64,000 bases of DNA from Minisyncoccia bacterium (GCA_046598345.1 JBKJIT010000001.1:108251-172250); one strand, 5' to 3'. Positions 17,239 to 36,975 are shown, counted from the stretch's first letter. Program-made: numbers and translations. Notes: a model not told the origin generated them from the sequence alone.

Positions 17239-17601
17239 ATGACATTCGAAGGTCCCAGCCCATCTTCGTCTGAGAAAAAGATGTCAGCGGAGGAATTAGG
17301 GGTTCTTGAAAAAGAATTTGATACACAATTATCTAAAATCCTGTCTGGACAATCGGATATCGTAGCACGTGTAAGGGAATTTTTTAGTTATCCAAAGGCA
17401 GTTGAGAAAAAGCAGTTAGCGCTATCTTCAGCTTATGGCCCGCAGCCCTTCAGTGGCAACATGGAAAATGTGGTAGGACAAGAAACACTCGAGGGTCTTA
17501 TCCGGGATAGTGCTGGCACTGAAAAGCAAAAAGAATATCTTGCAATAAGAACAGAAATAGAAAAGTTACGGGAACAGTATCGATATAACGCGAACATTTA
17601 A
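17239..17601 (+). CDS. hypothetical protein (120 aa)
   Basis: Clean ORF in the intergenic gap. Predicted helical. No recognisable motif. Confidence 0.5.
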   Translation: MTFEGPSPSSSEKKMSAEELGVLEKEFDTQLSKILSGQSDIVARVREFFSYPKAVEKKQLALSSAYGPQPFSGNMENVVGQETLEGLIRDSAGTEKQKEYLAIRTEIEKLREQYRYNANI

Positions 17602-17715
17602 ATTAGCGGAATTATTTCCGACCATTCAGTGATGGTGTAAACATTTTGGAGAAATAAATAAATCCTAAGGTAAAAAAGCATTCATGCTTAAGTCTGCCAA
17701 TTGTAGCGTTTGTAT

Positions 17716-18828: not shown

Positions 18829-18887
18829 TTTTTAAAATGCGTTCAGGCTTGTAAAGATGCTGTAATAAGATATCGTACTCTCTATCT

Positions 18888-20030: not shown

Positions 20031-20039
20031 TTATTTTTT

Positions 20040-20975: not shown

Positions 20976-21007
20976 GTAGGGTGAGTGGGTAGCTTTGAAT
21001 AGTCGCC

Positions 21008-22402
21008 TTGAACAGACGGTATACTATCTGTGTGCCAAAACGAGATCTCTCACAATTCATTCCACCTATTGATCCTGCAAAACATGCAGCGGGTGTTTTA
21101 AATTCAGTGTTAGAAAAAACGGGAACACAATCTCAATCGCCAGCGAGTGAAGACACTCTGGCACGTATGGAGAATGCATGGGGTCATATTGAGGCAGGAA
21201 AGGCGCTGACGGGAGGATCAGTTTTGGAGCGAAGTGCTTCCGGCCGTTCGCTCCGACTTCTCATTCTTTCGCGCGATCTTGCGCTCTTTGAAGGAGGAAG
21301 TCTTGCTCAGAATCAGCTTCTCGAACTTGCCGAGCGTTTTTCAGAAGTTCATGTCATCGTACTCTCAGTGACCGGGACGGGATCCAAAGTCCCTCTGCGC
21401 ATTCAGAATCAAGTATGGGTGTACCCGACGTACTCAAAGTACTGGTGGAAAACAGGCTTCGATGCGTATCGCATCGCGGAGGAGCAGCTATCATTTGCGC
21501 AGGGTTTTCGAGCAGATCTCGTCATTGCACACGATCCGTTTGAATCTGGAGTGGCCGCGCATTTCATTGCAAAAAAGTACGAGCGGCCACTCCAGATTCA
21601 TGTGCGCGAAGATTTTTACGATCCGCATTTTAAGCTTCTGGATGAACACAACAGTCTAAGGGTGTTTGTGGCGTCCTATGCACTCAGTCACGCAGAATCG
21701 ATTCGGACAAAGACAGCGTATATTCGTGAACGCTTGATCTCGGAGGATCCTCACCTGGAAAAGCGCACAGAAGTACTTCCAAACTATATTAATTTAAAAG
21801 CTTGGCGAGATGCCGTCCCAGCGTTCAGTCTGGAGATGCGCTATCCTCAATTTAAATTCATCATCGTTCATATTTCACAGATGACTAAAGCATCGCACAC
21901 GCAAGAGGTTATTAACGGTACGCTTCGACTCCTCAGTCAGTACCCTATGATGGGACTCGTCATTGTTGGCTCGGGGCCACTTCGTGCTACGTACGAGAAA
22001 TATGTTACTGAACTCAAGATGACGCGTCAGATTATTTTTGAACCCATGCCTGACGAAGTGCTCTCGCATTTAAAAACGGCGCACGTATGTATCCACCTCT
22101 CCATTGACGACGCGGAATCACACATCCCACTCATGGCGGCTGCGGCAAAGATCCCCATGATCATCAATGCAGAAGCAGGTAAGGAAATATTTAAAGACAA
22201 TGAATCTGCATTTCTCTGCGGAGCGACAGACGTAGAGTGTGTGGGGGCAAGGCTTAATACATTTCTTAATCAAAATGCGCTTCGGACAAGTTTTGGTGAT
22301 GAGGCAGAAAATGCTATCTTTACCCATATTGAGCAAGATTTTGAGTCATATATGGACGCCTATGCGGGAAGCATAGAACGTTCCTTTGCGCAGGCGAGTT
22401 AG
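21008..22402 (+). CDS. GT-B fold glycosyltransferase (GT4-like, divergent); start uncertain
   Basis: Two Rossmann-like halves (LRLLILSRDLALFEGGS ... GLVIVGSGP ... IPMIINAEAGKE). Low similarity to the canonical motif. Confidence 0.5.
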   Translation: MNRRYTICVPKRDLSQFIPPIDPAKHAAGVLNSVLEKTGTQSQSPASEDTLARMENAWGHIEAGKALTGGSVLERSASGRSLRLLILSRDLALFEGGSLAQNQLLELAERFSEVHVIVLSVTGTGSKVPLRIQNQVWVYPTYSKYWWKTGFDAYRIAEEQLSFAQGFRADLVIAHDPFESGVAAHFIAKKYERPLQIHVREDFYDPHFKLLDEHNSLRVFVASYALSHAESIRTKTAYIRERLISEDPHLEKRTEVLPNYINLKAWRDAVPAFSLEMRYPQFKFIIVHISQMTKASHTQEVINGTLRLLSQYPMMGLVIVGSGPLRATYEKYVTELKMTRQIIFEPMPDEVLSHLKTAHVCIHLSIDDAESHIPLMAAAAKIPMIINAEAGKEIFKDNESAFLCGATDVECVGARLNTFLNQNALRTSFGDEAENAIFTHIEQDFESYMDAYAGSIERSFAQAS

Positions 22403-22428
22403 GGTAAAGGCAGTAATGAGAATTTTGG

Positions 22429-23439
22429 ATGCGACTACTCATCACCACTCAGACAGTTGATACAGAAGACCCTATTCTTGGTTTTTTTCATGGGTGGCTG
22501 ATTGAACTCTCTAAGCATGTTGAACATATTCATGTGGTGTGTCTTCGTAAAGGAGCCTACACCCTTCCGCAAAACATCACCGTTCACTCGTTGGGAAAAG
22601 AAGATCGACAAAATCGGCTCGCGTACGTTCTTACCTTTTATAAAAATGTGTGGAAGCTCCGCAACGAATACGACATTGTGTTTTCTCATATGAATCCCCA
22701 CTACATTGTTCTTGCAGGATTATTTTGGCTCATAACCGGCAAACGAATCTTTCTCTGGAGAAATCATGCGAAGATGAACATGAAGAGTCGTATCGCGGCG
22801 TGGTTTTCAAGACGTGTGTTTTACACTTCTCCGTATGCATGTATGCGGCGATTCCGGCATTCTATGCAGATGCCGGTGGGAATTGATACGGAATTATTTA
22901 AGCCACAGCCAGAAATCGTGCGCGAAGAGGGAACAGTCCTTTTTCTCGGCCGTCTTTCTCCAGTGAAGCGTCCTGAACTCATGATGGAAAGCACAAAGCA
23001 TGTGCCGGAGCTTCGTATACATGTGTACGGGGACGAGCCCGGCGGCTCGCATACGTATGGTGACGCACTGAGGGCACAGAGTGGGGAAAACACTTCCTTT
23101 TTTCCTTCGCTTCCAAATTATAAAACTCCGAAAGTGTACGCTGCTCACGATATCTATGTAAATCTTACTCCAGAAGGAAGTATGGATAAAACGGTTCTTG
23201 AGGCCGCAGCATGCGGCACACTCGTGCTCGTTTCAAATCGCTCGTTCCAGGATGTATTACCACCGGAATGTACTCTCGCCCATGACCGACCGGAAGATAT
23301 TGGAGCAGCACTTCGAACACTCATACATCTTGCCCCAGAGAAAAAAAATAGCTATCGTGTAACCTTAAACCAAATGGTTCTTGAGTCCCATTCTCTAAAG
23401 AAACTTGTGAACACCCTCATTAGTCAGTTTGCATCATGA
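22429..23439 (+). CDS. glycosyltransferase (GT4/GT1-like)
   Basis: TVLFLGRLSPVKRPELMM and LEAAACGTLVLVSN GT-B C-terminal half. Confidence 0.6.
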   Translation: MRLLITTQTVDTEDPILGFFHGWLIELSKHVEHIHVVCLRKGAYTLPQNITVHSLGKEDRQNRLAYVLTFYKNVWKLRNEYDIVFSHMNPHYIVLAGLFWLITGKRIFLWRNHAKMNMKSRIAAWFSRRVFYTSPYACMRRFRHSMQMPVGIDTELFKPQPEIVREEGTVLFLGRLSPVKRPELMMESTKHVPELRIHVYGDEPGGSHTYGDALRAQSGENTSFFPSLPNYKTPKVYAAHDIYVNLTPEGSMDKTVLEAAACGTLVLVSNRSFQDVLPPECTLAHDRPEDIGAALRTLIHLAPEKKNSYRVTLNQMVLESHSLKKLVNTLISQFAS

Positions 23440-24278
23440 CACATATCGATTTCATAGGTATCGGAGCGCAAAAATCAGCCACATCGTGGGTGTATGCCTG
23501 TCTCTACGAACATCCGCAGATTTGTGCACCGATTAAGGAAATACACTTCTTTAGTCGCCCTCGCTTTAGCGAGGGAAAAGAGTGGTATGAAGATCATTTT
23601 AAACGCTGTGGAGAAGGAAAACTGTGTGGGGAATTTTCGACCTCGTATCTGTATTCGAAAGACGCGCCCCTGCGCATTCATTCTTTGTACCCGAACGCTA
23701 AACTTATTGCCATCCTTAGGAATCCTATTGATCGCGCATACTCGCACTATCGAAATGCAATCAAGGCGGGAGAAATCAAGGAATCAGAATCGTTTGAATC
23801 GTTCAGCGCACGGGAAGTGAGTGTGCTGGAGCAGGGTCTCTTCACACAGCAGCTCACGCGGTATTTCGAACTTTTCCCGCGCGAGCAAGTCCTCATTCTT
23901 ATTCAGGAAGATATTGAAAAAAGTCCGGAGGCATTTATGGAACGGATTTTTACGTTTCTAGGAGTCGACTCTACTTTTGTGCCAACTATGCTCCATACGC
24001 AAGTAAATGTTGGACGCATCCCAAAACGTGTGTTTATTGACCGCATGATGACGCACACTGCAGAATTTCTCCGAAAGATTGGATTTGATCGCTTTGTGTG
24101 GATTATTCGGAAACTTGGAATGCCCGACTTTGTGCGTTCATTTAATACTAAGGAGGGCAAGAAAGAAGGTAAGCCTCCCTATGATCGCGGAGCACTCGCA
24201 GCGTATTTTCGAGATGATGTGCGCGGCCTCACAGAATTTTTGGGGCGTGATATGGTAAAGGAATGGAACCTCGAGTAA
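23436..24278 (+). CDS. sulfotransferase family protein (PAPS-dependent)
   Basis: 5'-PSB motif GAQKSATSW near the N-terminus and 3'-PB-like ILRNPIDRAYSHY. 280 aa. Confidence 0.7.
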   Translation: MTHIDFIGIGAQKSATSWVYACLYEHPQICAPIKEIHFFSRPRFSEGKEWYEDHFKRCGEGKLCGEFSTSYLYSKDAPLRIHSLYPNAKLIAILRNPIDRAYSHYRNAIKAGEIKESESFESFSAREVSVLEQGLFTQQLTRYFELFPREQVLILIQEDIEKSPEAFMERIFTFLGVDSTFVPTMLHTQVNVGRIPKRVFIDRMMTHTAEFLRKIGFDRFVWIIRKLGMPDFVRSFNTKEGKKEGKPPYDRGALAAYFRDDVRGLTEFLGRDMVKEWNLE

Positions 24279-25087
24279 CACATACGCTACGCGATACCCT
24301 CGTAAGTCTCCTGGGGATTTTGGGTATTACAACTCTCTATAACCTGAGAGAAAAACGCCGCGGACCCCTCGTGCGTGTCCTCGTCTTTCATGATGTTACC
24401 GACGCCGTTTGGTTTGATTCTGTCATGAAGGAACTCAGTCTGCATGTTCATTTTCTCAGCCCGAGCGCCTTTGAAGCGGGTAATTTTATGTCGGATCGTG
24501 TAAATGTACTCGTAACCTTCGATGATGGGTACGCATCATGGGTAGAGATCTGTCTTTCGATTCTTGCTAAGTATAAATGCACTGCGGTATTTCTTGTAAA
24601 TTCAGGACTCCTCGATTCAAAAGACAAGAATACGAAAGCGACGTACGTACGTGAGCGCCTCCTCCTTTCCACAATGCGAGAGGTACTGACGTGGGATGGG
24701 CTGAGGGCGCTCGCTCACGAGGGACATACGATTGGGGGACACACGAGAACGCATGCGCGGCTCGGAGAGTTACAGGATGATGTGGCACTAGAAGAAATTC
24801 GAGGTGATAAAGCACGCGTTGAAGCAGAGCTTGACTCAACGCTCACCTGGTTTGCGTATCCCTTTGGAAATCCGGGAGACTACACGAAGCGTACCGCCGC
24901 GCTCGTTAGGGAATCGGGGTACCAGTATGCGTGCACAACTGAGGCGGCATTTGTGTCACCGGGAGGAGAGAGGATGGTGATCCCGCGTCTCTGTTTGCCA
25001 GACGGCCTTTCTCCACGCGCCGTTCGCTCGTGGGTGAGTGGAGGATATGATGTGCTTCGTAAACTAAAAAAACTATGTGTGGAATAA
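24263..25087 (+). CDS. polysaccharide deacetylase (CE4/NodB homology domain)
   Basis: VLVTFDDGYASW (TFDDG motif) and HTRTH histidine motif. Confidence 0.75.
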   Translation: MEPRVTHTLRDTLVSLLGILGITTLYNLREKRRGPLVRVLVFHDVTDAVWFDSVMKELSLHVHFLSPSAFEAGNFMSDRVNVLVTFDDGYASWVEICLSILAKYKCTAVFLVNSGLLDSKDKNTKATYVRERLLLSTMREVLTWDGLRALAHEGHTIGGHTRTHARLGELQDDVALEEIRGDKARVEAELDSTLTWFAYPFGNPGDYTKRTAALVRESGYQYACTTEAAFVSPGGERMVIPRLCLPDGLSPRAVRSWVSGGYDVLRKLKKLCVE

Positions 25088-26907
25088 ACGGTATTACGAC
25101 AAACGACCCGGCTCGCGTAGATCGAATGAACCAAGCAATTATTCATCGTGGTCCAGACGGTTCGCGGATTTGGGAAGGGAACGGGATTACTCTCGGCCAC
25201 AATCGACTTGCGATTATTGATCTTTCCGACCTTGCAATTCAGCCCATGGCAGGAATTGATGGTCGATACGAGATCGTTTTTAACGGAGAAATCTATAATT
25301 ATCGTGAACTCCGTGCACAGCTTGCATCTAAATACACTTTCAAAACGGAAAGTGATACGGAAGTGCTCATCACTGCGTACCACGAGTGGGGCGAAGCGAT
25401 GTTTGCACGCCTTCGGGGTATGTTCGCGTTTGGTCTCTGGGATAATCGGGAGAAGACGCTTACACTTGTGCGCGACCATATGGGCATTAAACCCCTCTAT
25501 TACACTCAAAAAGAGGGTGTGCTTGCGTTTTCGTCTGAAATACCTGGGTTGCTACAGGGGATAGAAAATCGTGTCCTCAATCGGCGGCGGGTTGGAATGT
25601 ACCTCTCAATGGAATATGTGCCAGGTCCCAAAACGCTCATTGAAGGAGTGTATAAGCTTCAACCCGGACATCTACTCGTGTATGCGCGCGGAGCATATAC
25701 AGTTCGCTCGTATCTTGACGCACTTCCAAAAAAACGTGTGGTCACGGAGGAGGAGATCTACCGTACGATTGATGAAGGAGTGCACCGGCAAATGGTGTCC
25801 GATCGTCCTATCGGCGCATACCTCTCTGGAGGGTTTGATTCTAGTATCGTGGTGCATCACATGGCGAAGCATTCACCGCACACTAAAACGTATTCCGTCG
25901 ATTTTGAAGCAGTGCGGGGTGAGGAGGAGGACAGTGTCAAATTTAATGCCGATGCAGCTCTTGCGAAGCAGACTGCCGCCTTTTATGGCACTGACCATAA
26001 GACTCTTACAATCGGGCTTCAAGACGTGCGCGAGAACATGGAACGTGTGCTTTCGTCCATGAATGAACCGGTCGCAAATTCCACTGCGATCACACAATTT
26101 CTCCTCAGTGATTTTGTACGAAAGGACGGTGTCATTGTTGTCTTAGGCGGCGATGGAGGAGATGAGCTCTTTGCTGGTTACACGCGACACCGACTTGCGA
26201 TGGGTGCGTATATGTACCAGCAACTGCCACACTTCCTTCAACGACTCGGTGGAAGCCTAAGTGCACGTGTTGGAAAGCTTTCCACGCCGTTCTACACGCC
26301 GCTTCACCGCACACTAATGATTAAGGACGAAAAGAAAATTGCTCCCTTTCTTACGAGTGGACTTTCCATTAATCATGAGGTGGAGACTTACTTCAATGCG
26401 CTCTACGAGGACCCGCAGTTTAATGGAGTGCACCCCCTTGATGTATTTATGAATGTCGATCGGAGAACGTGGCTCGCTGATGAGTGTTTCGTGCGTTCCG
26501 ATTACACATCTATGGCGCACGGCATTGAACTCCGAGTGCCACTCCTTGATCTTGATATTATCAAGCTCGCGGACCAACTCTCAATCTGGAAGAAGGTGCT
26601 ACCGCATGAGGGAAAGCGGATTATTCGGAGTACGTATAAACCGTATTTACCAGCCCATCTCTACAACCAACCTAAACGTGGTTGGCTCAGCCCAGCGGCA
26701 AAATGGTTTCGGGACCCCGAGATAAGTTCGTTTGCTCGCGAAGTATTTTCATCGGAGTATTACTCAGGTCTTGACGGTCTATTCAACTGGGAAAGTGTAC
26801 AGTCTATGCTGAATACACATATTGAAAAGAGAGGATATTATCTGTATCCACTTTGGAATATTCTTGTCCTGCAGGTCTGGGCACGGAAGCACAACATATT
26901 TACATGA
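25075..26907 (+). CDS. asparagine synthase (glutamine-hydrolysing) family amidotransferase
   Basis: N-terminal MCGI nucleophile. SGGFDSS PP-loop. 610 aa. Confidence 0.85.
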   Translation: MCGINGITTNDPARVDRMNQAIIHRGPDGSRIWEGNGITLGHNRLAIIDLSDLAIQPMAGIDGRYEIVFNGEIYNYRELRAQLASKYTFKTESDTEVLITAYHEWGEAMFARLRGMFAFGLWDNREKTLTLVRDHMGIKPLYYTQKEGVLAFSSEIPGLLQGIENRVLNRRRVGMYLSMEYVPGPKTLIEGVYKLQPGHLLVYARGAYTVRSYLDALPKKRVVTEEEIYRTIDEGVHRQMVSDRPIGAYLSGGFDSSIVVHHMAKHSPHTKTYSVDFEAVRGEEEDSVKFNADAALAKQTAAFYGTDHKTLTIGLQDVRENMERVLSSMNEPVANSTAITQFLLSDFVRKDGVIVVLGGDGGDELFAGYTRHRLAMGAYMYQQLPHFLQRLGGSLSARVGKLSTPFYTPLHRTLMIKDEKKIAPFLTSGLSINHEVETYFNALYEDPQFNGVHPLDVFMNVDRRTWLADECFVRSDYTSMAHGIELRVPLLDLDIIKLADQLSIWKKVLPHEGKRIIRSTYKPYLPAHLYNQPKRGWLSPAAKWFRDPEISSFAREVFSSEYYSGLDGLFNWESVQSMLNTHIEKRGYYLYPLWNILVLQVWARKHNIFT

Positions 26908-26937
26908 AGCTTTTATAAAAATAAATAGCTTACCCTC

Positions 26938-28056
26938 ATGTTCTCTTTTTTCAAAGACAAACAGATTGCCCTCATTTTACTCGCAGTGGTGAGCGTGATA
27001 ATCGCATTTACGTATGTCGACAGTCATGCCATAAACGCGATAGGAAGCCCGCGGGTATGGAGTCCGGATACACAAACCTATATAGAAGCAATGAAATTCA
27101 TAGAGGGAAGCAGCACAGGGCCTCTCGAGCCTGTTGTGGCGACCCGGCTCCTCACTTCACCGTTATTGCTCACCTCGGCGCTGGGAATAAAATACATAGT
27201 AGGGGACTACGGATACGGCATTTTGTTTCTAAATTTTGTGCTGTATTTAGTGTCCGTTATTCTTTTTTATCAGTTAGCCCTTCAAATATACAAACAGGAA
27301 AGAATAGCTTTCATCGCTGCTTTTTTATATATCACCAATTGGTGTCTGTTTTCATTTGGCACTACCTATCTTTCAGATATGGGTGGTTGGTTTTTCTTCT
27401 TGCTCACCTCACTCCTCAGTGTTCTGTACTATCTTAAAAATAGAAGCGTATATTTGTATGCCGCAATAGCTGCCGCATGTATTGGCGTGCTCTTTAAAGA
27501 ATACGGCGCGCTCGGGATTATCAGTTTAGGAATGCTTATCATACTAGGCGCTCGTACATGGGGGCAGAAGATTCGAGATATTTTAGTTGCAGGGGTTTCT
27601 TTTCTATTGGTCTTAGTGGCCTACCACGCATGGTTTTATTTCCAGTTTGACTGGAGCTATGTAGATTGGTACCAGTATAATCACCAGCAATATCGAGAGA
27701 ATACCTACAAAACACTTGGTGCTGCCATTAGTACACTTATAAAAGTTATCGGGTGGGTGTTTCTCGCAGGATGGCCTTTTTTCGCGATGGGAGTATGGTA
27801 TGAGATCAAAGATGTCCTAGGACGAAATTACAGTCGCGCTATTCTACTTCTAGGACTCTTGCCTGCCTCGCTCTTTTTCCTTGTGTGGCCTGCTTTTACT
27901 CAGCGTGTTGCATTCACACTCGTTCCGTGGGTTGCATTAATAGCGGCGTATGGTCTCTCAAAAATACAAAAAACATGGTTTCTTGTAGTGCTACTCCTCA
28001 TCTATGCACTCATAAACTATCACGTGGACATACTTATGATAGTAATTAATATATAA
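26938..28056 (+). CDS. polytopic integral membrane protein, putative GT-C-like glycosyltransferase / polymerase
   Basis: About 10 TM helices with one larger loop near the N-terminus. No soluble domain. Located inside the glycan cluster. Confidence 0.5.
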   Translation: MFSFFKDKQIALILLAVVSVIIAFTYVDSHAINAIGSPRVWSPDTQTYIEAMKFIEGSSTGPLEPVVATRLLTSPLLLTSALGIKYIVGDYGYGILFLNFVLYLVSVILFYQLALQIYKQERIAFIAAFLYITNWCLFSFGTTYLSDMGGWFFFLLTSLLSVLYYLKNRSVYLYAAIAAACIGVLFKEYGALGIISLGMLIILGARTWGQKIRDILVAGVSFLLVLVAYHAWFYFQFDWSYVDWYQYNHQQYRENTYKTLGAAISTLIKVIGWVFLAGWPFFAMGVWYEIKDVLGRNYSRAILLLGLLPASLFFLVWPAFTQRVAFTLVPWVALIAAYGLSKIQKTWFLVVLLLIYALINYHVDILMIVINI

Positions 28057-28061
28057 ATTGC

Positions 28062-29533
28062 TTAGTTGGTAGTTGTAACCTTATCTTTTAAATCTCCCTT
28101 TTCATAATATTCCTTTTCGCCTCCTATCGCATCGAAATCTGCTTTTTTGCCAGTTATGATACTTTCTGCTGCTGCAATTCCCATTTCGAGTGAATGATCC
28201 TGATTGTTGTAACGAAAACGGCCGGGACGCCCAATGTAAAACAGATTGCTGAAACGATCGAGAAAACCTTTGATGTGTCCGAGATTGGATTCGTAGTGTA
28301 GATCATAAATGGGGTACACGTCTTTTTGAGTGATGCGGTAATAAGTTCTCACCTCCTCTTTTTTCAAGAAGCCGGCTTTTTCGAGATGGGGAAGTATGTA
28401 CGCAAACAGTTCATCCTTATTCATAGACCAGACTGGCTCATCTTCAAAGCAGAAAAACTCAAGGAAGAGGGATGTTGTACCAGAGGGAGACATCCATGAA
28501 CTAAAATTTTTCATTTCTGACATTCGTGCGACAGGCACTTCTTTCTTGGGGAAATATATCCATTGATCTCTGGTCACGGATTCTTTGTTGAGCGTAATGA
28601 AGAGATATACTTGGTGCCGATATCGTAAATTTTTGAGGGCAGGCGGAACTTCTGGTGGAAGGGTAGTATCGAGAAGGTTTACAAAATTCACGATTGGTAT
28701 TGATTCAACTAGGTACTCACATTCAATCTCCAGCTCTTCTTCGCCGGCTCGTGCAATTACTTTGGTAATGCGGTTTTCTTCTATGCATATCTTTTGCACT
28801 TCGACATTGAACATAAAGAATACCCCTTTTGTTCCAGATTTTCTTGTATCGTCCGGTAAATAAGTCCCGTACCCTTACGAGGATAATAAAAGGTATCCAC
28901 AAGTGATTTTGGCTTATTTCGTGCCTTACTGGAGAATATTTTCAGTATCATGTCCTGCGCAATAGTACGGAGACTCAATCCTTTAATGCGTTGACCGGCC
29001 CAGTCGGGGTGAATGGTTGATGCGGGAATACCCCAGATCTTTTCTGTGTAGTTAATCATGTTGAACTCCCCCAATGTCCGACCAAAATTAGCGATCACAT
29101 AATCTTCAAAGTTTTTAATTTTCTTACCGAGAATGCCGTACTGCATCTTTGCTAGTGCGTAGTCGGTAAGGATGCGTATTGATGTAAAGAGTCCGATATT
29201 GCGCAGTGCCTGAATAGGATTCACCGGATAGTCATAAAATTTGCCATCAATGAACTGGCGAGTGTACCGATTAACGGTTATCCAGTCATCGTGGAGCACT
29301 TCTTCGATCATTTCGTACAGGTATGGATTTTTTGAAAAAAACCGATGGGGACCGTTGTCTGTATAAAAGGTTCCAACGTCTTCTTTGAAAGCATACGTTT
29401 TTGAAAGGCCTCCAACTTCAGAAGTCTTTTCCAGGACTAGGAATTTTTTACCAGCCTTTGCAAGCTCAAGTGCAGCGGCCATGCCTGCGGGCCCAGCGCC
29501 TATTATGAGCGTTTCTATCTTAATCCTGCGCAT
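28062..29533 (-). pseudogene. FAD-dependent oxidoreductase (amine-oxidase / phytoene-desaturase-like) split by a frameshift into two 250-aa ORFs (28781..29533 N-terminal half, 28062..28814 C-terminal half)
   Basis: The upstream ORF has the FAD dinucleotide motif IIGAGPAGMAAALELAKAG. The downstream ORF reads as the C-terminal substrate/FAD domain. The two ORFs overlap by 34 nt in different frames. Confidence 0.55.
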
Positions 29534-29701
29534 TATGTGTTTTTATAAAAAATGATGAGCTGTACATTATTCAAGCCTTCAATCTTCATGAATCGTTTCA
29601 TATGGTACTACGCAGCCAACACATTATCAATTTAAAACCTTTGTTTCGAATACATCTCGCAAAGAATATATGCGAATAGACATTTCCTTTCTGTTACATA
29701 C

Positions 29702-30151
29702 TTATTCTGCTGGAGTGGCGTGGGTATCTCGAAAAATCAAATACTTGTATATAAAAAAACTCCAAACAGCAATGGTCATCATGCAGGACATTTGGGCATA
29801 GATATCATACATCCCGAGTCGTTCCACAAAAACCACCATCAGTATGGTATTCATGTTGAGGTTTATCAGTGCCAGGACAAAGAAAAGACTGAATTGACCT
29901 GAGATGTTCTTGTCCCGATTCTCAAAGGTGACGTATTTTTGAAGTAAAAAGCTCACAATAACCGCTAATGTAAATGAAATCCCAGAAGCGAGAAGGTATT
30001 GAATATCAAAAATGCGCGACAGGATGTAGTAAACGATGAGTTGAAAAGTAGCCGCTGACCCTCCTGCAATAAGAAAAAGGATCAACCGTCGGAACTTCTT
30101 GATATTCCCAGTTATGAAATTACATATATTACCTGCATCCACACACAACAT
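29702..30151 (-). CDS. GtrA-like family membrane protein
   Basis: About 130-150 aa with 4 TM and GtrA-like hydrophobic pattern. Located in a glycan cluster. Start uncertain. Confidence 0.55.
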   Translation of the reverse strand: MLCVDAGNICNFITGNIKKFRRLILFLIAGGSAATFQLIVYYILSRIFDIQYLLASGISFTLAVIVSFLLQKYVTFENRDKNISGQFSLFFVLALINLNMNTILMVVFVERLGMYDIYAQMSCMMTIAVWSFFIYKYLIFRDTHATPAE

Positions 30152-30289
30152 TCTACTACAACTTCTACGCAGATGTTTTAATTATGTATGAATGGGGATG
30201 TGGGACTTTCGACGAGAGAACCTAATCTTTACTCACCGAGTTAAAGGTGGTAGTCTTCGTTCATAAACGTGACAAAATAAGGCTAAAAT

Positions 30290-31126
30290 ATGAAAATTGG
30301 ATTCATCGGACAAGGGTACGTTGGTAAAAACATAGCGAACGATTTTGAAGCACGTGGCCATGAAGTAGTCAGGTACTCTCTGGAGCCGGAATATATTTTG
30401 AATATGGATAAAATCCAGACGTGCGATATTGTCTTTATTGCTGTTCCCACACCCACAACCCCGGATGGTTTTGATTATTCAATAATTGAACAATCACTTC
30501 CGCTATGTAGGGAAGGGGCCAAAGTTGTTCTCAAATCAACACTGCTTCCAGGTACAACGGAAAAACTACAAAAGCTGTTTCCCCAGCTTTGCATACTTTT
30601 TTCGCCTGAATTTTTGTGTGAAGCGACGGCTGCTCATGATGCGGCAAACCCAGTCTTCAATATCATTGGGAGTCCTACGAACACAGCACTTCACGAAGAT
30701 GCTGCCAAAGAAATTATGAGCATTCTTCCTAAAGCTCAGCATTCCTTTCAAACGACCGCAACAGCAGCGGAGCTTTTTAAATATGTACACAACATTCAGG
30801 GGTATATGCGGGTCATTCTTTCGAACCTTTTTTATGACACCGCCACAACACTTGGCGTTGAGTGGGAAGACGTCCGTCGTATGATGGATGTGGACCCTAT
30901 GATGTCGCCGTACTACAACTCCCCGCTCCATAAGAGTGGTCGTGGCGCAGGAGGGCATTGTTTTATTAAAGACATGGCAGCATTTAGGATGCTCTATGAA
31001 AAGGCACTCCCTGAGGATGCTCTCGGTATTGAGGTATTCAAAGCCCTTGAAAGTAAGAACCTGGAGCTTTTAGCCTCCACTAACAAGGACCAGGGTCTTG
31101 TGAACGGGGTGTATGGACAAGATTAA
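30290..31126 (+). CDS. UDP-glucose/GDP-mannose dehydrogenase-family protein, short form (278 aa) lacking the C-terminal UDP-binding domain
   Basis: N-terminal MKIGFIGQGYVG Rossmann. Catalytic-Cys motif GGHCFIKD near residue 230. The ORF stops about 45 aa later, whereas full-length Ugd is about 430 aa. Confidence 0.65.
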   Translation: MKIGFIGQGYVGKNIANDFEARGHEVVRYSLEPEYILNMDKIQTCDIVFIAVPTPTTPDGFDYSIIEQSLPLCREGAKVVLKSTLLPGTTEKLQKLFPQLCILFSPEFLCEATAAHDAANPVFNIIGSPTNTALHEDAAKEIMSILPKAQHSFQTTATAAELFKYVHNIQGYMRVILSNLFYDTATTLGVEWEDVRRMMDVDPMMSPYYNSPLHKSGRGAGGHCFIKDMAAFRMLYEKALPEDALGIEVFKALESKNLELLASTNKDQGLVNGVYGQD

Positions 31127-31193
31127 GATTGAATAGAATATTTTCTGAAAGGAATGTGTTATAAAGAGAGTGCTATTAAAATAAAATTAACTC

Positions 31194-31778
31194 ATGCCGA
31201 AGATTGATTGGGAGGTGAATACAGTAAAAAATATATTTACAAGGAATGACCTATGGCCATGGAAGGATGACGAACTAGATTCTGTGTTGGATGTTGCTTG
31301 TGGTTTGTCATTTAAATCCAAGTTTATCCCTGCGAAAATTCGAGTGGGAGTTGATATATTTGAAAAATATTTCGATCATATTGAAACTGATGTGCCTTAT
31401 GTCGTTATAAAACACGACGTTCGTCGACTGAGTGAAATTTTTCTGCCTAAAAGCTTTGATCTCGTCATTGCTTTGGATATCATTGAACATCTCGAAAAGG
31501 AGGAGTCACTTGCTATGATCAGAGAGTGTGAGAAAATTGCTCGTAAGGCAGTAATTCTTGAAACACCGAAAGGATATGTACCACAAAATCTTGATATACA
31601 GGGTCATGGAGGTCATGAATTCCAGACACACCGATGCGGATGGGAAAAGGAAGAGTTAGAATCTTTGGGGTATAAGGTAATAGTAAGAGATTATGTCATG
31701 AGCAATGTTCAAAGACATACGGAACTAGATGTGGATCCTCATATCCAACTCATGGACGGCATTAAATTTATTCAATGA
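31194..31778 (+). CDS. class I SAM-dependent methyltransferase
   Basis: Motif I VLDVACG and post-I LVIALDIIEHL. Confidence 0.6.
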   Translation: MPKIDWEVNTVKNIFTRNDLWPWKDDELDSVLDVACGLSFKSKFIPAKIRVGVDIFEKYFDHIETDVPYVVIKHDVRRLSEIFLPKSFDLVIALDIIEHLEKEESLAMIRECEKIARKAVILETPKGYVPQNLDIQGHGGHEFQTHRCGWEKEELESLGYKVIVRDYVMSNVQRHTELDVDPHIQLMDGIKFIQ

Positions 31779-31782
31779 ACTC

Positions 31783-32736
31783 ATGGCACGAATTCTGATT
31801 ACTGGATCTAAGGGCGTAATAGGCACCTTTCTCACTGATTTCTTAACAAAGAGGGGGCATAGTATTTTCGGTATTGATCTTACTCATGGATTTGGAGAGG
31901 TGGGGTGGGAACATGCTATGGCAAAGAATGAGTTTACTTATTCTCGCTGTGATGTGAGCGACTTTCGACAACTCGAGCGTGTCTTTGAAGAAGCGGGGCC
32001 TTTTGATTTTGTGTATCACACCGCAGCAGAATTTGGTAGGTGGAATGGGGAAGATTTTTATGAACAACTCTGGCGAAGTAACGCAATTGGTACTAAAAAT
32101 ATTATTCGCCTTCAAGAAAAATTGAAGTTTAAATTAATTCACTTTTCTTCTTCGGAAGTATATGGAGATTTCCCTGGAATTATGGAGGAATCGGTAATGG
32201 ATACTGTAGAAATTAAACAAATGAATGATTACGCATTAACTAAATGGGTTAATGAACAACAAATTCGAAATTCTGTAATTAAAAATCAAACGGATAGTGT
32301 TATCGTCCGACTTTTCAACACGTATGGTCCGGGAGAGTGGTATCACCCGTACCGCAGCGTAAATTGTAAATTTACCTACCATGCTCTTCATGGTCTTCCG
32401 GTCACCGTCTATAAGAACCATACACGCACCTCTACCTACCTTGAGGATACATGTAATACACTCTCAAACATCGTTGATAACTTTATACCCAATTCAGTTT
32501 ATAATATTGGAGGCCGAGAATTGCATAACATGGAAACTCTAGTGGAGCTGATCTGGAAATACACTGGTGCTAATGTTGACCTCATAACTTACGCGGAATC
32601 AGAGATCCTTACAACAAAAGACAAAGTAGTGGACGTAAGCAAATCTGAACGTGATCTGCAGCATAAGAACAGTGTTACCTTAGAAGAAGGTGTCAAAAGG
32701 ACGGTGGACTGGATGCGTACGTTTTATGGCATGTAG
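31783..32736 (+). CDS. NAD-dependent epimerase/dehydratase
   Basis: MARILITGSKGVIG Rossmann. SDR fold. Track ORF 31729 trimmed to the first ATG after the upstream stop. Confidence 0.7.
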   Translation: MARILITGSKGVIGTFLTDFLTKRGHSIFGIDLTHGFGEVGWEHAMAKNEFTYSRCDVSDFRQLERVFEEAGPFDFVYHTAAEFGRWNGEDFYEQLWRSNAIGTKNIIRLQEKLKFKLIHFSSSEVYGDFPGIMEESVMDTVEIKQMNDYALTKWVNEQQIRNSVIKNQTDSVIVRLFNTYGPGEWYHPYRSVNCKFTYHALHGLPVTVYKNHTRTSTYLEDTCNTLSNIVDNFIPNSVYNIGGRELHNMETLVELIWKYTGANVDLITYAESEILTTKDKVVDVSKSERDLQHKNSVTLEEGVKRTVDWMRTFYGM

Positions 32737-32763
32737 CTATTAAAAGGTGGTTCGTCGCAATCT

Positions 32764-33885
32764 ATGCATATAGTTTACGTTGCTAACAGTCGCTTCCCAA
32801 GTGAACGGGCGCATATGACGCAGATAGTGCATATGTGTAATGCATTTGCTGAGAATGGGCACGAGGTCACTCTACTTGTAACTGATCGAAAGACTAATAT
32901 TGTTGAAGATCCGGAGACTTTTTTTGGTGTTCCCCTTACATTTTCGATAGAGCGGATCCAAGTTCCAGATATTGCAGGCCGCGCAAAAGACATACCTATA
33001 TTTCTGAGACCTCTTGCGTTCATGATTCAACGTCTCGTATTTACATTAAGGGCAAAAAAATACATAGAAAGAGAATCGTTTGATCTTATTTATGGACGCG
33101 ACGAATGGATTTTGTATTCCTTGAGCATACTTCAGAGTGTAAAAATAATTTGGGAATCTCACGAAGCGAAATATTCATTTCCTGCTCGTCTGCTTATTCC
33201 TCATGTTAAAAAACTAGTAGTTATCTCTGAGGGTATTTATACATTTTATATCAGTAAAGGAGTCTCAAACCAGAAAATGATTGTTGCGCATGATGCGGTG
33301 GATGCCCGTTTTTTTGACCCGCATATACCAAAAGATGAAGCCCGAAAAATGCTTGGCATTGCCACGACCAAGCCCGTCGTTATGTACATCGGAGGACTCG
33401 AGTCCTGGAAGGGAGTCGAAACACTTCTGAAAGCAGGGGATCAGTCAGATGCCTTTGAAGTCCATATTGTGGGTGGTAAAGAAAACGAGCTTTTGAAATA
33501 TCGTAAAATATATCCAAACGCTCACTTTCATGGCCCTTGGTTCTATCGAGAACTTCCAAAAATCCAACAGGCAGCTGATATTCTCGTGATTCCAAATACT
33601 GCAAAAGTGGCTCTCTCTGCAGAATATACATCACCCCTCAAGCTTTTTACATACATGACTTCAGGAAAGCCTATTGTTGCATCAAAAATTCCAAGTATTG
33701 CAAACATCCTGTCGGAGGAAGAAGTTTTTTTCTTTGAGCCTGATGATCCTGAGTCACTCTTTACAATCATACTTTCAGCAATCCAAAACAGCAGAGATGC
33801 TAAGGAGAGAACGGAGAGAGCCTACAGCAAGAGTTTCAAGTATACTTGGATACGACGTGCGGAAGAAATTACTAAATCCCTATAG
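32764..33885 (+). CDS. glycosyltransferase family 4
   Basis: GT-B architecture with VMYIGGLESWKG and C-terminal lysine/glutamate motifs. Confidence 0.7.
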   Translation: MHIVYVANSRFPSERAHMTQIVHMCNAFAENGHEVTLLVTDRKTNIVEDPETFFGVPLTFSIERIQVPDIAGRAKDIPIFLRPLAFMIQRLVFTLRAKKYIERESFDLIYGRDEWILYSLSILQSVKIIWESHEAKYSFPARLLIPHVKKLVVISEGIYTFYISKGVSNQKMIVAHDAVDARFFDPHIPKDEARKMLGIATTKPVVMYIGGLESWKGVETLLKAGDQSDAFEVHIVGGKENELLKYRKIYPNAHFHGPWFYRELPKIQQAADILVIPNTAKVALSAEYTSPLKLFTYMTSGKPIVASKIPSIANILSEEEVFFFEPDDPESLFTIILSAIQNSRDAKERTERAYSKSFKYTWIRRAEEITKSL

Positions 33886-34702
33886 TATGTTTCATATAAA
33901 TCTTGTCTTTAAAATACTCCCCAGACTTTCTGAGCGGTTAAGTAACTCGTTTTTTCAAACTGTGCGTCTGTACCTAAAATTTTTACTATTTTTAATCTCT
34001 AAGAAACTGCATAAGAAAGCTTCTCCATGGAGATTCGAATTTTATTTTGAAGGCAAAGAACTTAGAATAAAATTATTTGAAGGCAGTCCTGACATCGCTG
34101 CACTTGCTGAAATCTTTTTAGACGGAGAGTACGATTGGGATAGTATTAAAGAACCACAGATTATTATTGATCTTGGAGCACATACAGGAAACACTGCACT
34201 CTATTTTCACGCAAAATATCCGAATGCAGTAATTTATGCAGTTGAAGCATCGCCTCAAACCTTTTCGCATCTATTAGAAAATGTGCATGGTATAGCACAA
34301 ATAAAGCCCATCTTCGGAGCCATCTCAGACAGGAACGGAAAGATAACTTTTTATGAGTCGGAGAGTAGTTTAGGAAGTTCAATTTATAAACGAGCTAACA
34401 GTGTCGGGGTCGAGGTTCCCACATTCACATTAGACAGTCTCTTTTTGAAAGAAGGCTTAGGAAGAGCGGATTTTATAAAAATTGATATTGAAGGGGGCGA
34501 AGGGGATATCTTTCTCAGGGATTTACCTGAGAAATACGCTGAATGGTATATAGTCGAGGTTCACTCAGACCTTATGACAGAGCGTGTTGATTTCATACAG
34601 AGATTTTTCGCGAAATATGAGACCTTAACTAAATCTCTTGCCACCAAAGATCGCTATTTGCTGTATGCAAAGGCGACAATAACGAATGAAATAACCATGT
34701 AA
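33886..34702 (+). CDS. FkbM-family methyltransferase
   Basis: IIIDLGAHTGNTALYF and FIKIDIEGGEGDIF are FkbM-domain hallmarks. Start set at the ATG immediately after the upstream stop. Confidence 0.7.
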
Positions 34703-34737
34703 CTTTAGAGGAATGGGGTGTGTTATTATTGGAACCC

Positions 34738-35784
34738 ATGCAGCATATACTTATTACAGGAGGGGCAGGTTTTATCGGAGTGAACGCTACTCGGCGTTTT
34801 TTAAGAGACGGGTGGAAGGTTACTATTTTTGACAATTTGTCTCGAAAAGGCTCTGACATTAACTTAAGGCATTTGGAAATGGAAAATCACAAAAATCTTT
34901 TTGTGATGATTAATGATATTCGTACCGACAGAGAGGCGCTGAATCAGATTGCATCAGAATGTGATGTAATCCTACATCTTGCTGCACAGGTTGCGGTCAC
35001 CACCTCGATCATCGACCCTCAAACTGACTTCGACATTAACATATTAGGTACATTCAATGTCCTTGAAGCAGCGCGCAAAAGTGAGCGCAAGCCGCTCGTG
35101 ATTTATGCGTCAACGAACAAGGTCTTTGGAGCACTTGAAAATTATCCAGTGCGAGAAATGGAGACACGCTTTGAGTTTGAGCACGACCACTTCCATACGC
35201 ATGGAGTTCCTGGTGATCATCCACTCGATTTCCATTCTCCCTATGGCTGTTCGAAAGGCGCAGCTGATCAGTACGTGGTCGATTATGCACGCATCTATGG
35301 TCTAAACACTGTAGTTTTTCGGCAATCATGCATTTATGGTACCAATCAATTTGGAGTTGAAGATCAGGGATGGTTAGCATGGTTTGCTATTGCAACCATG
35401 TTGGGTAGACCTCTTACCCTCTACGGAACGGGCAAGCAGGTTCGTGACGCGCTCTTTGTCGATGATCTTGTTGATTTGTATGTCCATGCAGTTACAAATC
35501 GTGTTTCCATGAATGGAAATGCCTATGTGGTAGGTGGAGGTCCGAACAATACGCTCTCGCTACTAGAACTTTTGGATATGATTGAGAAAAAACTTCAAAA
35601 GAGGCCAGTTACAACTCTCGCTGCGATTCGCGCCGGCGATCAACCTATATTTGTGGCGGATGTACGAGCGCTTGAAAAAGATTTTAATTGGAAACCGCAG
35701 ATCACTGTGCACGAAGGTGTAGATCGCATGATTGAATGGATGCACGAACATGAGGCTGATATTAGAAAACTTTTTCAGGCTTAA
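34738..35784 (+). CDS. NAD-dependent epimerase/dehydratase (CDP-paratose 2-epimerase-like)
   Basis: ILITGGAGFIGVNA. SDR catalytic YGCSK. Confidence 0.8.
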   Translation: MQHILITGGAGFIGVNATRRFLRDGWKVTIFDNLSRKGSDINLRHLEMENHKNLFVMINDIRTDREALNQIASECDVILHLAAQVAVTTSIIDPQTDFDINILGTFNVLEAARKSERKPLVIYASTNKVFGALENYPVREMETRFEFEHDHFHTHGVPGDHPLDFHSPYGCSKGAADQYVVDYARIYGLNTVVFRQSCIYGTNQFGVEDQGWLAWFAIATMLGRPLTLYGTGKQVRDALFVDDLVDLYVHAVTNRVSMNGNAYVVGGGPNNTLSLLELLDMIEKKLQKRPVTTLAAIRAGDQPIFVADVRALEKDFNWKPQITVHEGVDRMIEWMHEHEADIRKLFQA

Positions 35785-35799
35785 TTTTCTCCCTAACGC

Positions 35800-36972: not shown

Positions 36973-36975
36973 TCT

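What the first reader, a model, noticed from the sequence alone, without database searches (positions are those of the whole stretch)
28062..29533. FAD-dependent oxidoreductase gene split by a frameshift into two 250-aa ORFs
ORF 28781..29533 (-) carries the N-terminal FAD-binding GxGxxG region (IIGAGPAGMAAALELAKAG). ORF 28062..28814 (-) reads as the matching C-terminal domain. The two overlap by 34 nt in different frames. This is either a sequencing or assembly indel, a recent inactivating mutation (pseudogene) in an otherwise intact cluster, or a programmed frameshift. An amine-oxidase-type flavoenzyme inside a glycan locus is itself unusual (possible sugar amine oxidation or UDP-galactopyranose-mutase-like role).
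Basis: seen in the sequence. Interest (0 to 1): 0.55.

Follow-up and report, generated by a model that had tools for sequence, protein, structure and literature searches.

The report
Frameshifted UGM-like flavoenzyme gene
One gene for a sugar-ring-contracting (UDP-galactopyranose-mutase-like) flavoenzyme in a cell-surface glycan locus is broken in two by a single missing base, which is most likely a very recent inactivating mutation or, less likely, a sequencing error: an ordinary finding.

Summary
ORFs 28781..29533(-) and 28062..28814(-) are the two halves of one gene. Adding one base gives a 490-aa protein. It matches NCBIfam NF005548 (PRK07208 family) end to end above its cutoff, and thousands of homologues are single 480-500-aa proteins. 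The break is not in the AAAAGGGG run. Homologue alignment places it at codons 239-240 (TCTTTA, 28814..28819), probably TTTT>TTT. Everything else about the gene is intact, with no excess loss of conserved residues, and I saw no other split gene among the ~50 long ORFs of the window. So there is one very recent lesion. The same sequence occurs in an NCBI contig and in an independent Logan assembly, which favours a real mutation over an assembly artefact. Only the reads can settle this. Programmed frameshifting is unlikely: the split is not conserved, there is no downstream structure, and 0-frame coding continues past the only good slippery site (A_AAG_GGG). Low-level leaky rescue at that site remains possible. 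The enzyme is not an amine oxidase. By sequence, fold and active-site residues it is closest to eukaryote-type UDP-galactopyranose mutases. It sits next to a GtrA gene, which is plausible for a glycan locus.

The parts
28062..29533 (-). Whole disrupted gene for a ~490-aa UGM-like FAD enzyme (NCBIfam NF005548 / PRK07208 family)
   Evidence: The repaired product scores 405.1 bits against a cutoff of 389, in one stretch 7-484. It hits Pfam Amino_oxidase and NAD_binding_8. Homologues are single 480-500-aa proteins.
28781..29533 (-). N-terminal ORF (250 aa). Residues 1-240 are genuine; the last 10 residues (CSMSKCKRYA) are out-of-frame read-through ending at TAG 28781..28783.
   Evidence: Family homology in this frame ends at ...EQKGYS(L).
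29483..29500 (-). GxGxxG dinucleotide-binding motif (GAGPAG, residues 12-17)
   Evidence: G12, G14 and G17 are invariant in the family alignment.
28062..28814 (-). C-terminal ORF (250 aa) in the -1 frame. It corresponds to residues 241-490 of the intact protein and carries the R337, Y407, R436, Y442 and N444 active-site equivalents and the C-terminal FAD-binding segment GRPGRFRYNNQDHS.
28814..28819 (-). Frameshift site, codons 239-240 (TCT TTA in the 0 frame), with one base missing. The probable ancestral state is TCT TTT ATG (T4), now TCT TT ATG (T3 run at 28815..28817).
   Evidence: The 0-frame Tyr238 (TAT 28820..28822) matches the family (Y in 89 of 120 homologues). The -1 frame matches from residue 240/241 onward, and the residue spacing to the conserved position 246 is exact with a +1 base repair. 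The closest homologue has TTT at codon 240.
28823..28829 (-). A_AAG_GGG heptamer in the 0 frame (Lys236-Gly237). It is a -1 slippery motif located 6 nt upstream of the lesion and could allow leaky rescue. It is not shown to be used.
   Evidence: Sequence. The motif is listed among the 15 best -1 heptamers in E. coli, with 0.57% in a native gene context (PMC4066793). The same in-frame heptamer occurs in two intact genes of the window.
28784..28874 (-). Frameshift-permissive window (91 nt), running from just after the last -1-frame stop (TAA 28875..28877) to just before the 0-frame stop (TAG 28781..28783). Any -1 slip here would yield a full-length product.
29702..30151 (-). Upstream same-strand gene for a GtrA-family membrane protein (149 aa). 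It is a likely functional partner.
   Evidence: Pfam GtrA_DPMS_TM, 75.7 bits. A GtrA domain is fused to the C-terminus of the same enzyme in P0060, P0072, P0074 and P0091.

Best explanation
This is one gene, not two. It encodes a ~490-aa FAD enzyme of the PRK07208/NF005548 family whose closest characterised relatives are eukaryote-type UDP-galactopyranose mutases. Such enzymes use reduced flavin to contract a sugar ring from pyranose to furanose on a diphosphate-linked sugar. Relative to the intact family, one base is missing at codons 239-240, most likely one T of a TTTT run (TCT TTT ATG became TCT TT ATG). A ribosome starting at 29533 therefore reads Tyr238-Ser239, then ten wrong residues, and stops at TAG 28781..28783. 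The resulting 250-aa fragment has the Rossmann/GxGxxG part and His63/Arg182. It lacks Trp325, Tyr327, Arg337, Tyr407, Arg436, Tyr442 and the C-terminal FAD-binding segment, so it cannot be active alone. Shown: the split, its position, the single-polypeptide nature of the family, and the absence of any other damage. Inferred: the missing base is real in the DNA of the sequenced population, which makes this a very young pseudogene (or a null allele that became dominant). A small fraction of ribosomes may slip -1 inside the 91-nt permissive window, for example at A_AAG_GGG, and still make some full-length enzyme.
For: The split and its frames are confirmed. The repaired protein passes the NF005548 cutoff in one stretch. 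The best 120 of 4564 homologues are 470-633 aa, 105 of them 480-499 aa, 55-65% identical over 95-100% of the query. The 0 frame still encodes the family's Tyr238 and a polar residue at 239, and the -1 frame fits from residue 240/241 with exact spacing. There is no decay: the protein deviates at only 3 of 151 columns that are >=95% conserved (homologue controls: median 1, 75th percentile 2, 90th percentile 5), and the C-half/N-half identity ratio is 0.873 against 0.895 for homologue pairs. In the AlphaFold model (pLDDT 85), the break falls inside the FAD-binding domain, between helix 223-235 and strand 239-242, not at a linker. Identical DNA, including the lesion, is found in a 174-kb NCBI contig and in a separately assembled 21-kb Logan contig of run SRR31159418, 100% identical over 8025 bp. 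No other pair of adjacent same-strand ORFs in the ORF map of the window (about 50 ORFs of 190 aa or more) looks like a split gene. The 30 neighbouring proteins scanned against Pfam gave whole-domain matches, apart from two with no match and one dehydrogenase-like protein that lacks its C-terminal domain. The assembly therefore does not look indel-prone.
Against: No reads were available, so a systematic read error cannot be excluded. The two assemblies may also derive from the same run. The lesion sits in a short homopolymer, where both true slippage mutations and platform errors occur. No relative closer than 65% identity exists in any collection searched, so there is no sister genome to show an intact or a broken allele. 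A gene with zero secondary damage is also what an artefact would look like.
Confidence: 0.6

Rival explanations
1. Sequencing or consensus error. The real genome has TTTT and an intact 490-aa gene, and one T was lost in the reads or in polishing.
For: The lesion is a single base in a homopolymer. The gene shows no other damage. The two assemblies that share it may rest on the same reads. Other public contigs of this family do carry obvious technical breaks: an A8-run shift in L016 and a scaffold N-gap in L014.
Against: The run is only 3-4 bases long. An independent k-mer-based Logan assembly gives the identical sequence in a 21-kb contig. From my own knowledge of that method, this implies accurate reads with repeated support. 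No other adjacent same-strand ORF pair in the 64-kb window looks like a split gene, and the Pfam-scanned neighbours give whole-domain matches. An indel-prone assembly would be expected to show several broken genes.
Confidence: 0.22
2. Programmed -1 ribosomal frameshifting. Ribosomes slip at A_AAG_GGG (28823..28829) and make the full-length enzyme (...EQKG-VFF-MFNVEV...) at a set ratio to the 250-aa N-terminal product.
For: The heptamer is in the correct (0) frame, in the correct direction, and inside the permissive window. A_AAG_GGG is one of the 15 most efficient -1 motifs in E. coli (PMC4066793).
Against: The split is unique to this genome. All close homologues are single ORFs, and other broken copies break elsewhere for unrelated reasons. 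The 0 frame goes on encoding the family's Tyr238 and a polar residue 239 after the heptamer, whereas a slip there would give Val-Phe (V occurs in <=2 of 120 homologues at 238). This indicates a recent deletion downstream, not an old recoding site. There is no stimulatory structure: 60-nt windows starting 0-15 nt downstream fold at -4.8 to -7.9 kcal/mol, about the gene's median. The longer fold (z = -2.9) is a long-range helix, not a spaced hairpin. The genome hardly uses SD sequences (2 of 34 starts), so SD stimulation is unlikely. The same in-frame heptamer occurs in two intact genes here. Without a strong stimulator the motif gives about 0.1-0.6% in E. coli.
Confidence: 0.06
3. A two-piece enzyme. 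The C-terminal half is translated on its own from ATG 28814 (by coupling or re-initiation) and associates with the N-terminal fragment to rebuild activity.
For: The C-half ORF starts with ATG, with GGGG 8 nt upstream. Initiation in this genome is mostly SD-independent, so an internal ATG could in principle be used.
Against: No homologue is naturally split at this point. The Met is simply residue 241 of the family, a position that is L/F/M. The cut lies between a helix and a strand of the Rossmann-type FAD-binding domain. The N fragment would also carry a 10-residue nonsense tail.
Confidence: 0.04

Closest known systems
Eukaryote-type UDP-galactopyranose mutase (Aspergillus fumigatus UGM, PDB 3ute/3ukh; Trypanosoma cruzi UGM, PDB 4dsg)
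   Same: Both are ~490-510-aa single-chain FAD enzymes with the same three-domain fold (Foldseek E ~1e-32, TM 0.77-0.83). Sequence alignment covers residues 4-463 (E 3e-27). Equivalents of His63, Arg91, Tyr104, Trp167, Arg182, Trp315, Tyr317, Arg327, Tyr419, Arg447, Tyr453 and Asn457 are present and invariant in the family. The roles of His62, Arg176, Arg327, Tyr395 and Tyr429 in TcUGM are described in PMC4192007.
   Different: Identity is only ~22%. The protein scores far below the bacterial UGM equivalog TIGR00031 (50.9 against 303.75 bits) and just below the Pfam GLF cutoff (24.6 against 26.3). The Gln107 (uridine side) and Asn207 (flap) equivalents are not aligned. The substrate is unknown, and the GtrA linkage hints at a membrane or lipid-linked context. 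The copy in this window is frameshifted.
NCBIfam NF005548 (PRK07208.1-4), 'hypothetical protein' / FAD-dependent oxidoreductase family, common in Patescibacteria
   Same: It is 55-65% identical to thousands of members. The closest homologue sits in the same kind of glycan-locus context.
   Different: The members listed are single ORFs. This copy needs a one-base repair. No member has a tested function.
-1 programmed frameshift sites of bacterial genes (dnaX, IS3/IS911 type)
   Same: An X_XXZ_ZZN heptamer (A_AAG_GGG) lies in the 0 frame, upstream of the point where the -1 frame must be entered.
   Different: There is no conserved overlap architecture, no spaced downstream hairpin or pseudoknot, and no usable SD stimulator. 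Coding in the 0 frame continues past the heptamer.
Single-base-deletion alleles with non-programmed frameshift suppression (Springstein et al. 2024, PMC10861913)
   Same: A 1-bp deletion needs a -1 slip. In E. coli test genes such deletions were suppressed at an aggregate 1-10% by slips at many codons. The 91-nt permissive window here would allow the same.
   Different: Nothing has been measured for this organism or this sequence. This is an analogy only.

Membership tests
NCBIfam NF005548 / PRK07208 FAD-dependent oxidoreductase family | Whole-protein HMM score above the curated cutoff, over the full profile | tested here: met
   405.1 bits against a cutoff of 389; residues 7-484 against profile positions 5-475 of 488, in one stretch.
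NCBIfam NF005548 / PRK07208 FAD-dependent oxidoreductase family | Encoded as one polypeptide of ~480-500 aa | tested here: not met
   As written in the window, the gene is two 250-aa ORFs. The best 120 homologues are single proteins. This copy is a disrupted member.
NCBIfam NF005548 / PRK07208 FAD-dependent oxidoreductase family | Family-invariant residues retained | tested here: met
   148 of 151 columns that are >=95% conserved are retained, which is within the range of intact members.
UDP-galactopyranose mutase (EC 5.4.99.9) | UGM three-domain fold with the FAD Rossmann domain | tested here: met
   AlphaFold model with pLDDT 85.2 and pTM 0.85. The top 34 PDB matches are all A. fumigatus or T. 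cruzi UGM, at E 1e-30 to 1e-32 and TM 0.75-0.83, ahead of protoporphyrinogen oxidases at E ~1e-24.
UDP-galactopyranose mutase (EC 5.4.99.9) | Catalytic and diphosphate-binding residues (AfUGM His63, Arg182, Tyr317, Arg327, Tyr419, Arg447, Tyr453, Asn457; TcUGM His62, Arg176, Arg327, Tyr395, Arg423, Tyr429, Asn433) | tested here: met
   Pairwise HMMER alignment to AfUGM places H63, R182, Y327, R337, Y407, R436, Y442 and N444 of the window protein at these positions. All are invariant in 60 family members. Residue roles are from PMC4192007 and from the PDB mutant entries listed. The Asn207/Asn201 flap residue is not matched.
UDP-galactopyranose mutase (EC 5.4.99.9) | Curated sequence models for UGM (TIGR00031 equivalog; Pfam GLF) | tested here: not met
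   TIGR00031 scores 50.9 bits against a cutoff of 303.75, N-terminal part only. Pfam GLF scores 24.6 against 26.3. I therefore call it UGM-like, not a UGM.
UDP-galactopyranose mutase (EC 5.4.99.9) | Interconverts UDP-Galp and UDP-Galf | not testable with these tools
   This needs an enzyme assay on the repaired protein. The substrate could be another NDP-sugar or a lipid-linked sugar.
Flavin amine oxidase (Pfam PF01593 sensu stricto) | Full-length similarity to amine or amino-acid oxidases | tested here: not met
   The Pfam Amino_oxidase model is hit (73.8 bits). However, solved amine and L-amino-acid oxidases match only residues ~8-80, the FAD-binding start (E 1e-8 to 1e-3). UGMs match residues 4-463.
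Programmed -1 ribosomal frameshift site | Slippery X_XXZ_ZZN heptamer in the 0 frame within the overlap | tested here: met
   A_AAG_GGG at 28823..28829. It is efficient in E. coli.
Programmed -1 ribosomal frameshift site | Stimulatory RNA structure 5-9 nt downstream (or an SD-like element upstream) | tested here: not met
   Local 60-nt folds of -4.8 to -7.9 kcal/mol fall at the 47th-78th percentile of the gene. SD motifs are found at only 2 of 34 gene starts.
Programmed -1 ribosomal frameshift site | Frameshift architecture conserved among relatives | tested here: not met
   No homologue shares the split. Three look-alike fragments break elsewhere or are truncated. No relative closer than 65% identity was available.
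Recent pseudogene (frameshift null allele) | ORF disrupted relative to intact homologues, with the lesion real in the DNA | tested here: inconclusive
   The disruption is shown. Two assemblies agree, but the reads could not be inspected.

The most novel reading that the evidence does not exclude
The gene is still functional. A substantial fraction of ribosomes shift -1 at the efficient A_AAG_GGG heptamer, 6 nt before the lesion, and make full-length UGM-like enzyme. The 'pseudogene' would then be a recoded (or frameshift-rescued) gene in a Patescibacteria-like bacterium, producing both a 250-aa FAD-domain fragment and the full enzyme.
Probability: 0.07. Interest if true: 0.45.

Novelty: new member of a known kind. 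Interest (0 to 1): 0.14.

Why it matters
It matters mainly for annotation. The two 'proteins' now in public databases (P0121 and P0210, sources NCBI and Logan) are halves of one disrupted gene. They should be flagged as a frameshifted UGM-like flavoenzyme, not counted as two novel 250-aa proteins. Biologically, if the lesion is real, this organism has just lost, or strongly reduced, one tailoring step of its surface glycan. That step is probably formation of a furanose sugar, and the rest of a ~40-kb glycan locus looks intact. That would be an ordinary example of glycan-locus micro-evolution. The family itself may deserve more attention than the frameshift. It consists of bacterial relatives of eukaryote-type UGM, abundant in Patescibacteria, sometimes fused to GtrA, and has no tested function.

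Tried and rejected
(1) I first placed the indel in the AAAAGGGG run (28823..28830). I rejected this because the 0-frame Tyr238-Ser239 downstream of that run still match the family.

(2) I looked for the same organism or a near relative to see an intact or a split allele. GTDB species genomes gave a best hit of 51%. JGI metagenomes gave a best of 55%. The protein database queried with the repaired protein gave a best of 65%. Queried with the C-half alone, it returned only the identical sequence and then 57-59%. An exact look-up found only one Logan contig plus an NCBI contig. No sister allele exists in these collections.

(3) Three short database proteins (P0125, P0128, P0132) start with Met at exactly the same alignment position as the C-half ORF, which suggested a recurrent split. 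Inspection of their contigs showed a scaffold N-gap with other shifts (L014), a 5' truncation (L015), and a shift in an A8 run ~40 codons upstream (L016). The shared Met is only the gene caller's first ATG.

(4) Downstream stimulatory RNA structure: none was found locally. The 93-nt fold with z = -2.9 is closed by a long-range helix that starts 2 nt after the site.

(5) The U_UUA tetramer at the lesion as a slip site: it is only 1.8-3.6x background even with a pseudoknot in E. coli.

(6) Stop-codon reassignment: the 0-frame stop is TAG and the frames differ, so no alternative code joins the ORFs.

(7) Transcriptional slippage or phase variation: the runs are only A4, G4 and T3, too short by established knowledge.

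(8) A literature search for the run accession found nothing. Searches linking this family or UGM to GtrA or Patescibacteria found nothing specific.

(9) tblastn of GtrA against four homologous loci found no neighbouring GtrA. The GtrA link therefore rests on this window and on four fused proteins only.

Full report
**Observation.** ORF 28781..29533(-) is 250 aa and starts MRRIKIETLIIGAGPAGMAAALELAKAG. ORF 28062..28814(-) is also 250 aa. They overlap by 34 nt, and the second lies in the -1 frame relative to the first. The window is 44% G+C.

**One gene or two?** Adding a single base at the junction gives a 490-aa protein.
- It matches NCBIfam NF005548 (PRK07208.1-4) in one uninterrupted stretch, residues 7-484 against profile positions 5-475 of 488, at 405.1 bits against a curated cutoff of 389.
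- It hits Pfam Amino_oxidase and NAD_binding_8, with a sub-threshold GLF match.
- A search of the 5.8-billion-cluster protein database gave 4564 hits at E<=1e-20. The best 120 are 470-633 aa, 105 of them 480-499 aa, and cover 95-100% of the query at 55-65% identity. They come mostly from Patescibacteria/Paceibacteria MAGs.
- None of them is a natural pair of half-size genes.

**Where the frame breaks.** My first guess was the AAAAGGGG run, and it was wrong.
- In the alignment with 120 homologues, the upstream frame keeps matching through Lys236-Gly237-Tyr238-Ser239. Tyr is found at position 238 in 89 of 120 homologues. Val, which the -1 frame would give, is found in at most 2. Position 239 is mostly polar.
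- The downstream frame matches from residue 240/241 onward ([L/F]-M-F-N-V-E-V). A one-base repair reproduces the family's residue spacing to the conserved position 246 exactly.
- The missing base therefore lies in TCTTTA, window 28814..28819.
- The closest homologue's DNA reads GGA TAC CAG TTT ATT TTT AAT at this spot. The likely ancestral sequence was TCT TTT ATG, and one T of a T4 run was lost.
- The lesion requires a -1 shift, or one added base, to restore the frame. The stretch in which any -1 slip would give a full-length product runs from 28874 to 28784. It is bounded by TAA at 28875..28877 in the -1 frame and TAG at 28781..28783 in the 0 frame.

**State of the rest of the gene and of the window.**
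- Of 151 alignment columns that are >=95% conserved among 120 homologues, the window protein deviates at 3. Intact homologues tested the same way deviate at a median of 1, with a 75th percentile of 2 and a 90th percentile of 5.
- The C-terminal half is no more diverged than expected. The C/N identity ratio is 0.873, against 0.895 for homologue pairs. The frameshift is the only defect.
- In the ORF map of the window (about 50 ORFs of 190 aa or more), no other pair of adjacent same-strand ORFs looks like a split gene. Apparent gaps in my first map turned out to be intact genes that my greedy ORF choice had skipped.
- Pfam scans of 30 neighbouring proteins gave whole-domain matches. The exceptions are two with no match and one dehydrogenase-like protein that lacks its C-terminal domain.
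- The surrounding 12-51 kb is one large glycan locus. It holds many GT4/GT1 glycosyltransferases, epimerases/dehydratases, methyltransferases, deacetylases and two AsnB-like amidotransferases. It also holds a Wzx-like flippase, a sulfotransferase and a PAPS-synthesis gene.

**Artefact, mutation or recoding?**

*Independent sequence evidence.* The two half-proteins occur with exactly these sequences in an NCBI assembly (contig of 174,316 bp) and in a Logan assembly of run SRR31159418 (21,233-bp contig). The Logan contig is 100% identical to the window over the 8,025 bp I could fetch, lesion included. Its ends differ from those of the window, so it is a separate assembly. Whether it rests on the same reads I cannot tell. 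From my own knowledge of how Logan contigs are built (k-mer unitigs with a multiplicity filter), a 21-kb error-free contig implies accurate reads that repeatedly support the TTT allele. Together with the absence of other visibly broken genes, this favours a real deletion over a technical one. A 3-4-base homopolymer is nevertheless where a rare technical indel would fall, and only the reads can decide.

*No sister allele.* No relative closer than 65% amino-acid identity exists in GTDB species genomes, JGI metagenomes or the protein database. No sister genome could be consulted.

*Programmed frameshifting: the point in its favour.* The 0-frame heptamer A_AAG_GGG (28823..28829) lies 6 nt before the lesion. 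It fits X_XXZ_ZZN, and Sharma et al. 2014 (PMC4066793) list it among the 15 most efficient -1 motifs in E. coli. They measured 0.57% in a native gene context against a 0.046% background.

*Programmed frameshifting: the points against.*
- The split is not conserved.
- Three database fragments begin with Met at the same alignment position as the C-half. They proved to be a scaffold N-gap case, a 5' truncation, and an A8-run shift ~40 codons upstream.
- The 0 frame continues to encode the family's Tyr-Ser after the heptamer. That is what a recent downstream deletion predicts, not an old recoding site.
- RNA folding shows no spaced stimulatory hairpin. 60-nt windows fold at -4.8 to -7.9 kcal/mol, around the gene's median.
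- SD-like motifs precede only 2 of 34 gene starts, so SD stimulation is implausible.
- The same in-frame heptamer occurs in two intact genes of the window.
- The tetramer at the lesion itself (U_UUA) is nearly inert in E. coli.

*What remains plausible.* Non-programmed leakiness is still possible. Springstein et al. 2024 (PMC10861913) found that single-base deletions in E. coli test genes were suppressed at an aggregate 1-10% by -1 slips at many codons. The 91-nt window here contains a good heptamer.

**What the enzyme is.**
- By sequence, the nearest solved structures are eukaryote-type UDP-galactopyranose mutases. A. fumigatus UGM scores E 3e-27 over residues 4-463, and T. cruzi UGM scores E 1e-26. 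Amine and amino-acid oxidases match only the first ~80 residues.
- An AlphaFold model built on 60 family members (pLDDT 85.2, pTM 0.85) finds the same enzymes as its top 34 PDB matches (TM 0.75-0.83, E ~1e-30 to 1e-32). They rank ahead of protoporphyrinogen oxidases.
- In the pairwise alignment, the equivalents of AfUGM His63, Arg91, Tyr104, Trp167, Arg182, Trp315, Tyr317, Arg327, Tyr419, Arg447, Tyr453 and Asn457 are all present. All are invariant in the family. The catalytic and diphosphate-holding roles of the corresponding TcUGM residues are described in PMC4192007.
- These residues are spread over both halves, and the break falls between helix 223-235 and strand 239-242 of the FAD-binding domain. 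Neither half could work alone.
- The protein fails the curated UGM models: TIGR00031 at 50.9 against 303.75 bits, and GLF at 24.6 against 26.3. It also lacks aligned equivalents of Gln107 and Asn207. I call it UGM-like with unknown substrate.
- A GtrA-family membrane protein is encoded immediately upstream on the same strand (29702..30151). In four relatives a GtrA domain is fused to the enzyme's C-terminus. This hints at a membrane-associated, possibly lipid-linked-sugar step. That is inference only, and GtrA was not found next to the gene in four other loci.
- The closest homologue (65% identity, GCA_040959485.1) also sits among GT4 transferases and epimerases. A flavoenzyme of this kind in a glycan locus is normal, not unusual.

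**Verdict.** The finding is real and correctly read: one gene cut by a one-base frameshift. My ranking is as follows.
- A genuine, very recent inactivating deletion, possibly leaky: about 0.6.
- A read-level or consensus error: about 0.2.
- Programmed -1 frameshifting: about 0.06.
- A functional two-piece enzyme: about 0.04.

This is an ordinary event in a MAG-type genome, and its main practical consequence is for annotation. Interest is low. The uncharacterised UGM-like/GtrA family is the more interesting lead.

Noticed in passing
window 12149..51321: There is one large (~40 kb) glycan-biosynthesis locus whose scanned genes give whole-domain Pfam matches. It holds many GT4/GT1 transferases, four NDP-sugar epimerase/dehydratases, FkbM and Methyltransf_24 methyltransferases, and two polysaccharide deacetylases. 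It also has an ATP-grasp plus PHP pair, a Wzx-like flippase (44559..45818 -) and a UDP-GlcNAc 2-epimerase.
   Followed up: partly
window 23436..24278 (+) and 49675..51321 (+): A sulfotransferase sits inside the glycan locus, and a bifunctional ATP sulfurylase/APS kinase (PAPS synthesis) sits at its edge. Together they suggest a sulfated surface glycan in a Patescibacteria-like genome.
   Followed up: no
window 30290..31126 (+): A UDP-glucose/GDP-mannose dehydrogenase-like protein is only 278 aa. It has the N-terminal and central domains but no C-terminal UDP-binding domain, and there is no room for one before the next gene at 31194. I did not check whether this is a natural short family or a truncation.
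   Followed up: no
window 25075..26907 (+) and 40160..41962 (-): Two AsnB-like glutamine amidotransferase/asparagine synthase paralogues (610 and 600 aa) lie inside the glycan locus. They may amidate a sugar acid or a peptide stem.
   Followed up: no
window-wide (34 gene starts): Only 2 of 34 confident start codons are preceded by a GGAG/GAGG/AGGA motif. Leaders are A/T-rich, so translation initiation in this organism appears largely Shine-Dalgarno-independent.
   Followed up: partly
window 29702..30151 (-); proteins P0060, P0072, P0074, P0091: A GtrA/DPMS transmembrane domain is a separate upstream gene here. In several relatives (~616-633 aa) it is fused to the C-terminus of the same UGM-like enzyme. 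This functional link is, as far as I could find, undescribed.
   Followed up: partly
L016:180-420; L014:840-1010; L015:1-240: Other public contigs carry broken copies of the same family at other positions: a shift in an A8 run (L016), a scaffold N-gap plus further shifts (L014), and a 5' truncation with unrelated upstream sequence (L015).
   Followed up: yes
window 9957..11966 (+): There is a TraG/VirD4/TrwB-like coupling ATPase with a long Pro/Ser/Thr-rich C-terminal tail. A homologous TraG-like gene also lies upstream of the closest homologue's glycan locus (L006), which suggests partial synteny.
   Followed up: no
window 570..3090: This stretch has low coding density, with only short ORFs and a single tRNA-Ile(GAT) at 1886..1960. 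No Rfam family other than the tRNA was found.
   Followed up: no
window 30086 (end of Logan contig SRR31159418_86183): The independent Logan contig ends inside the GtrA gene, at window position 30086, whereas the window's assembly continues. This could reflect strain variation or a coverage break there.
   Followed up: no
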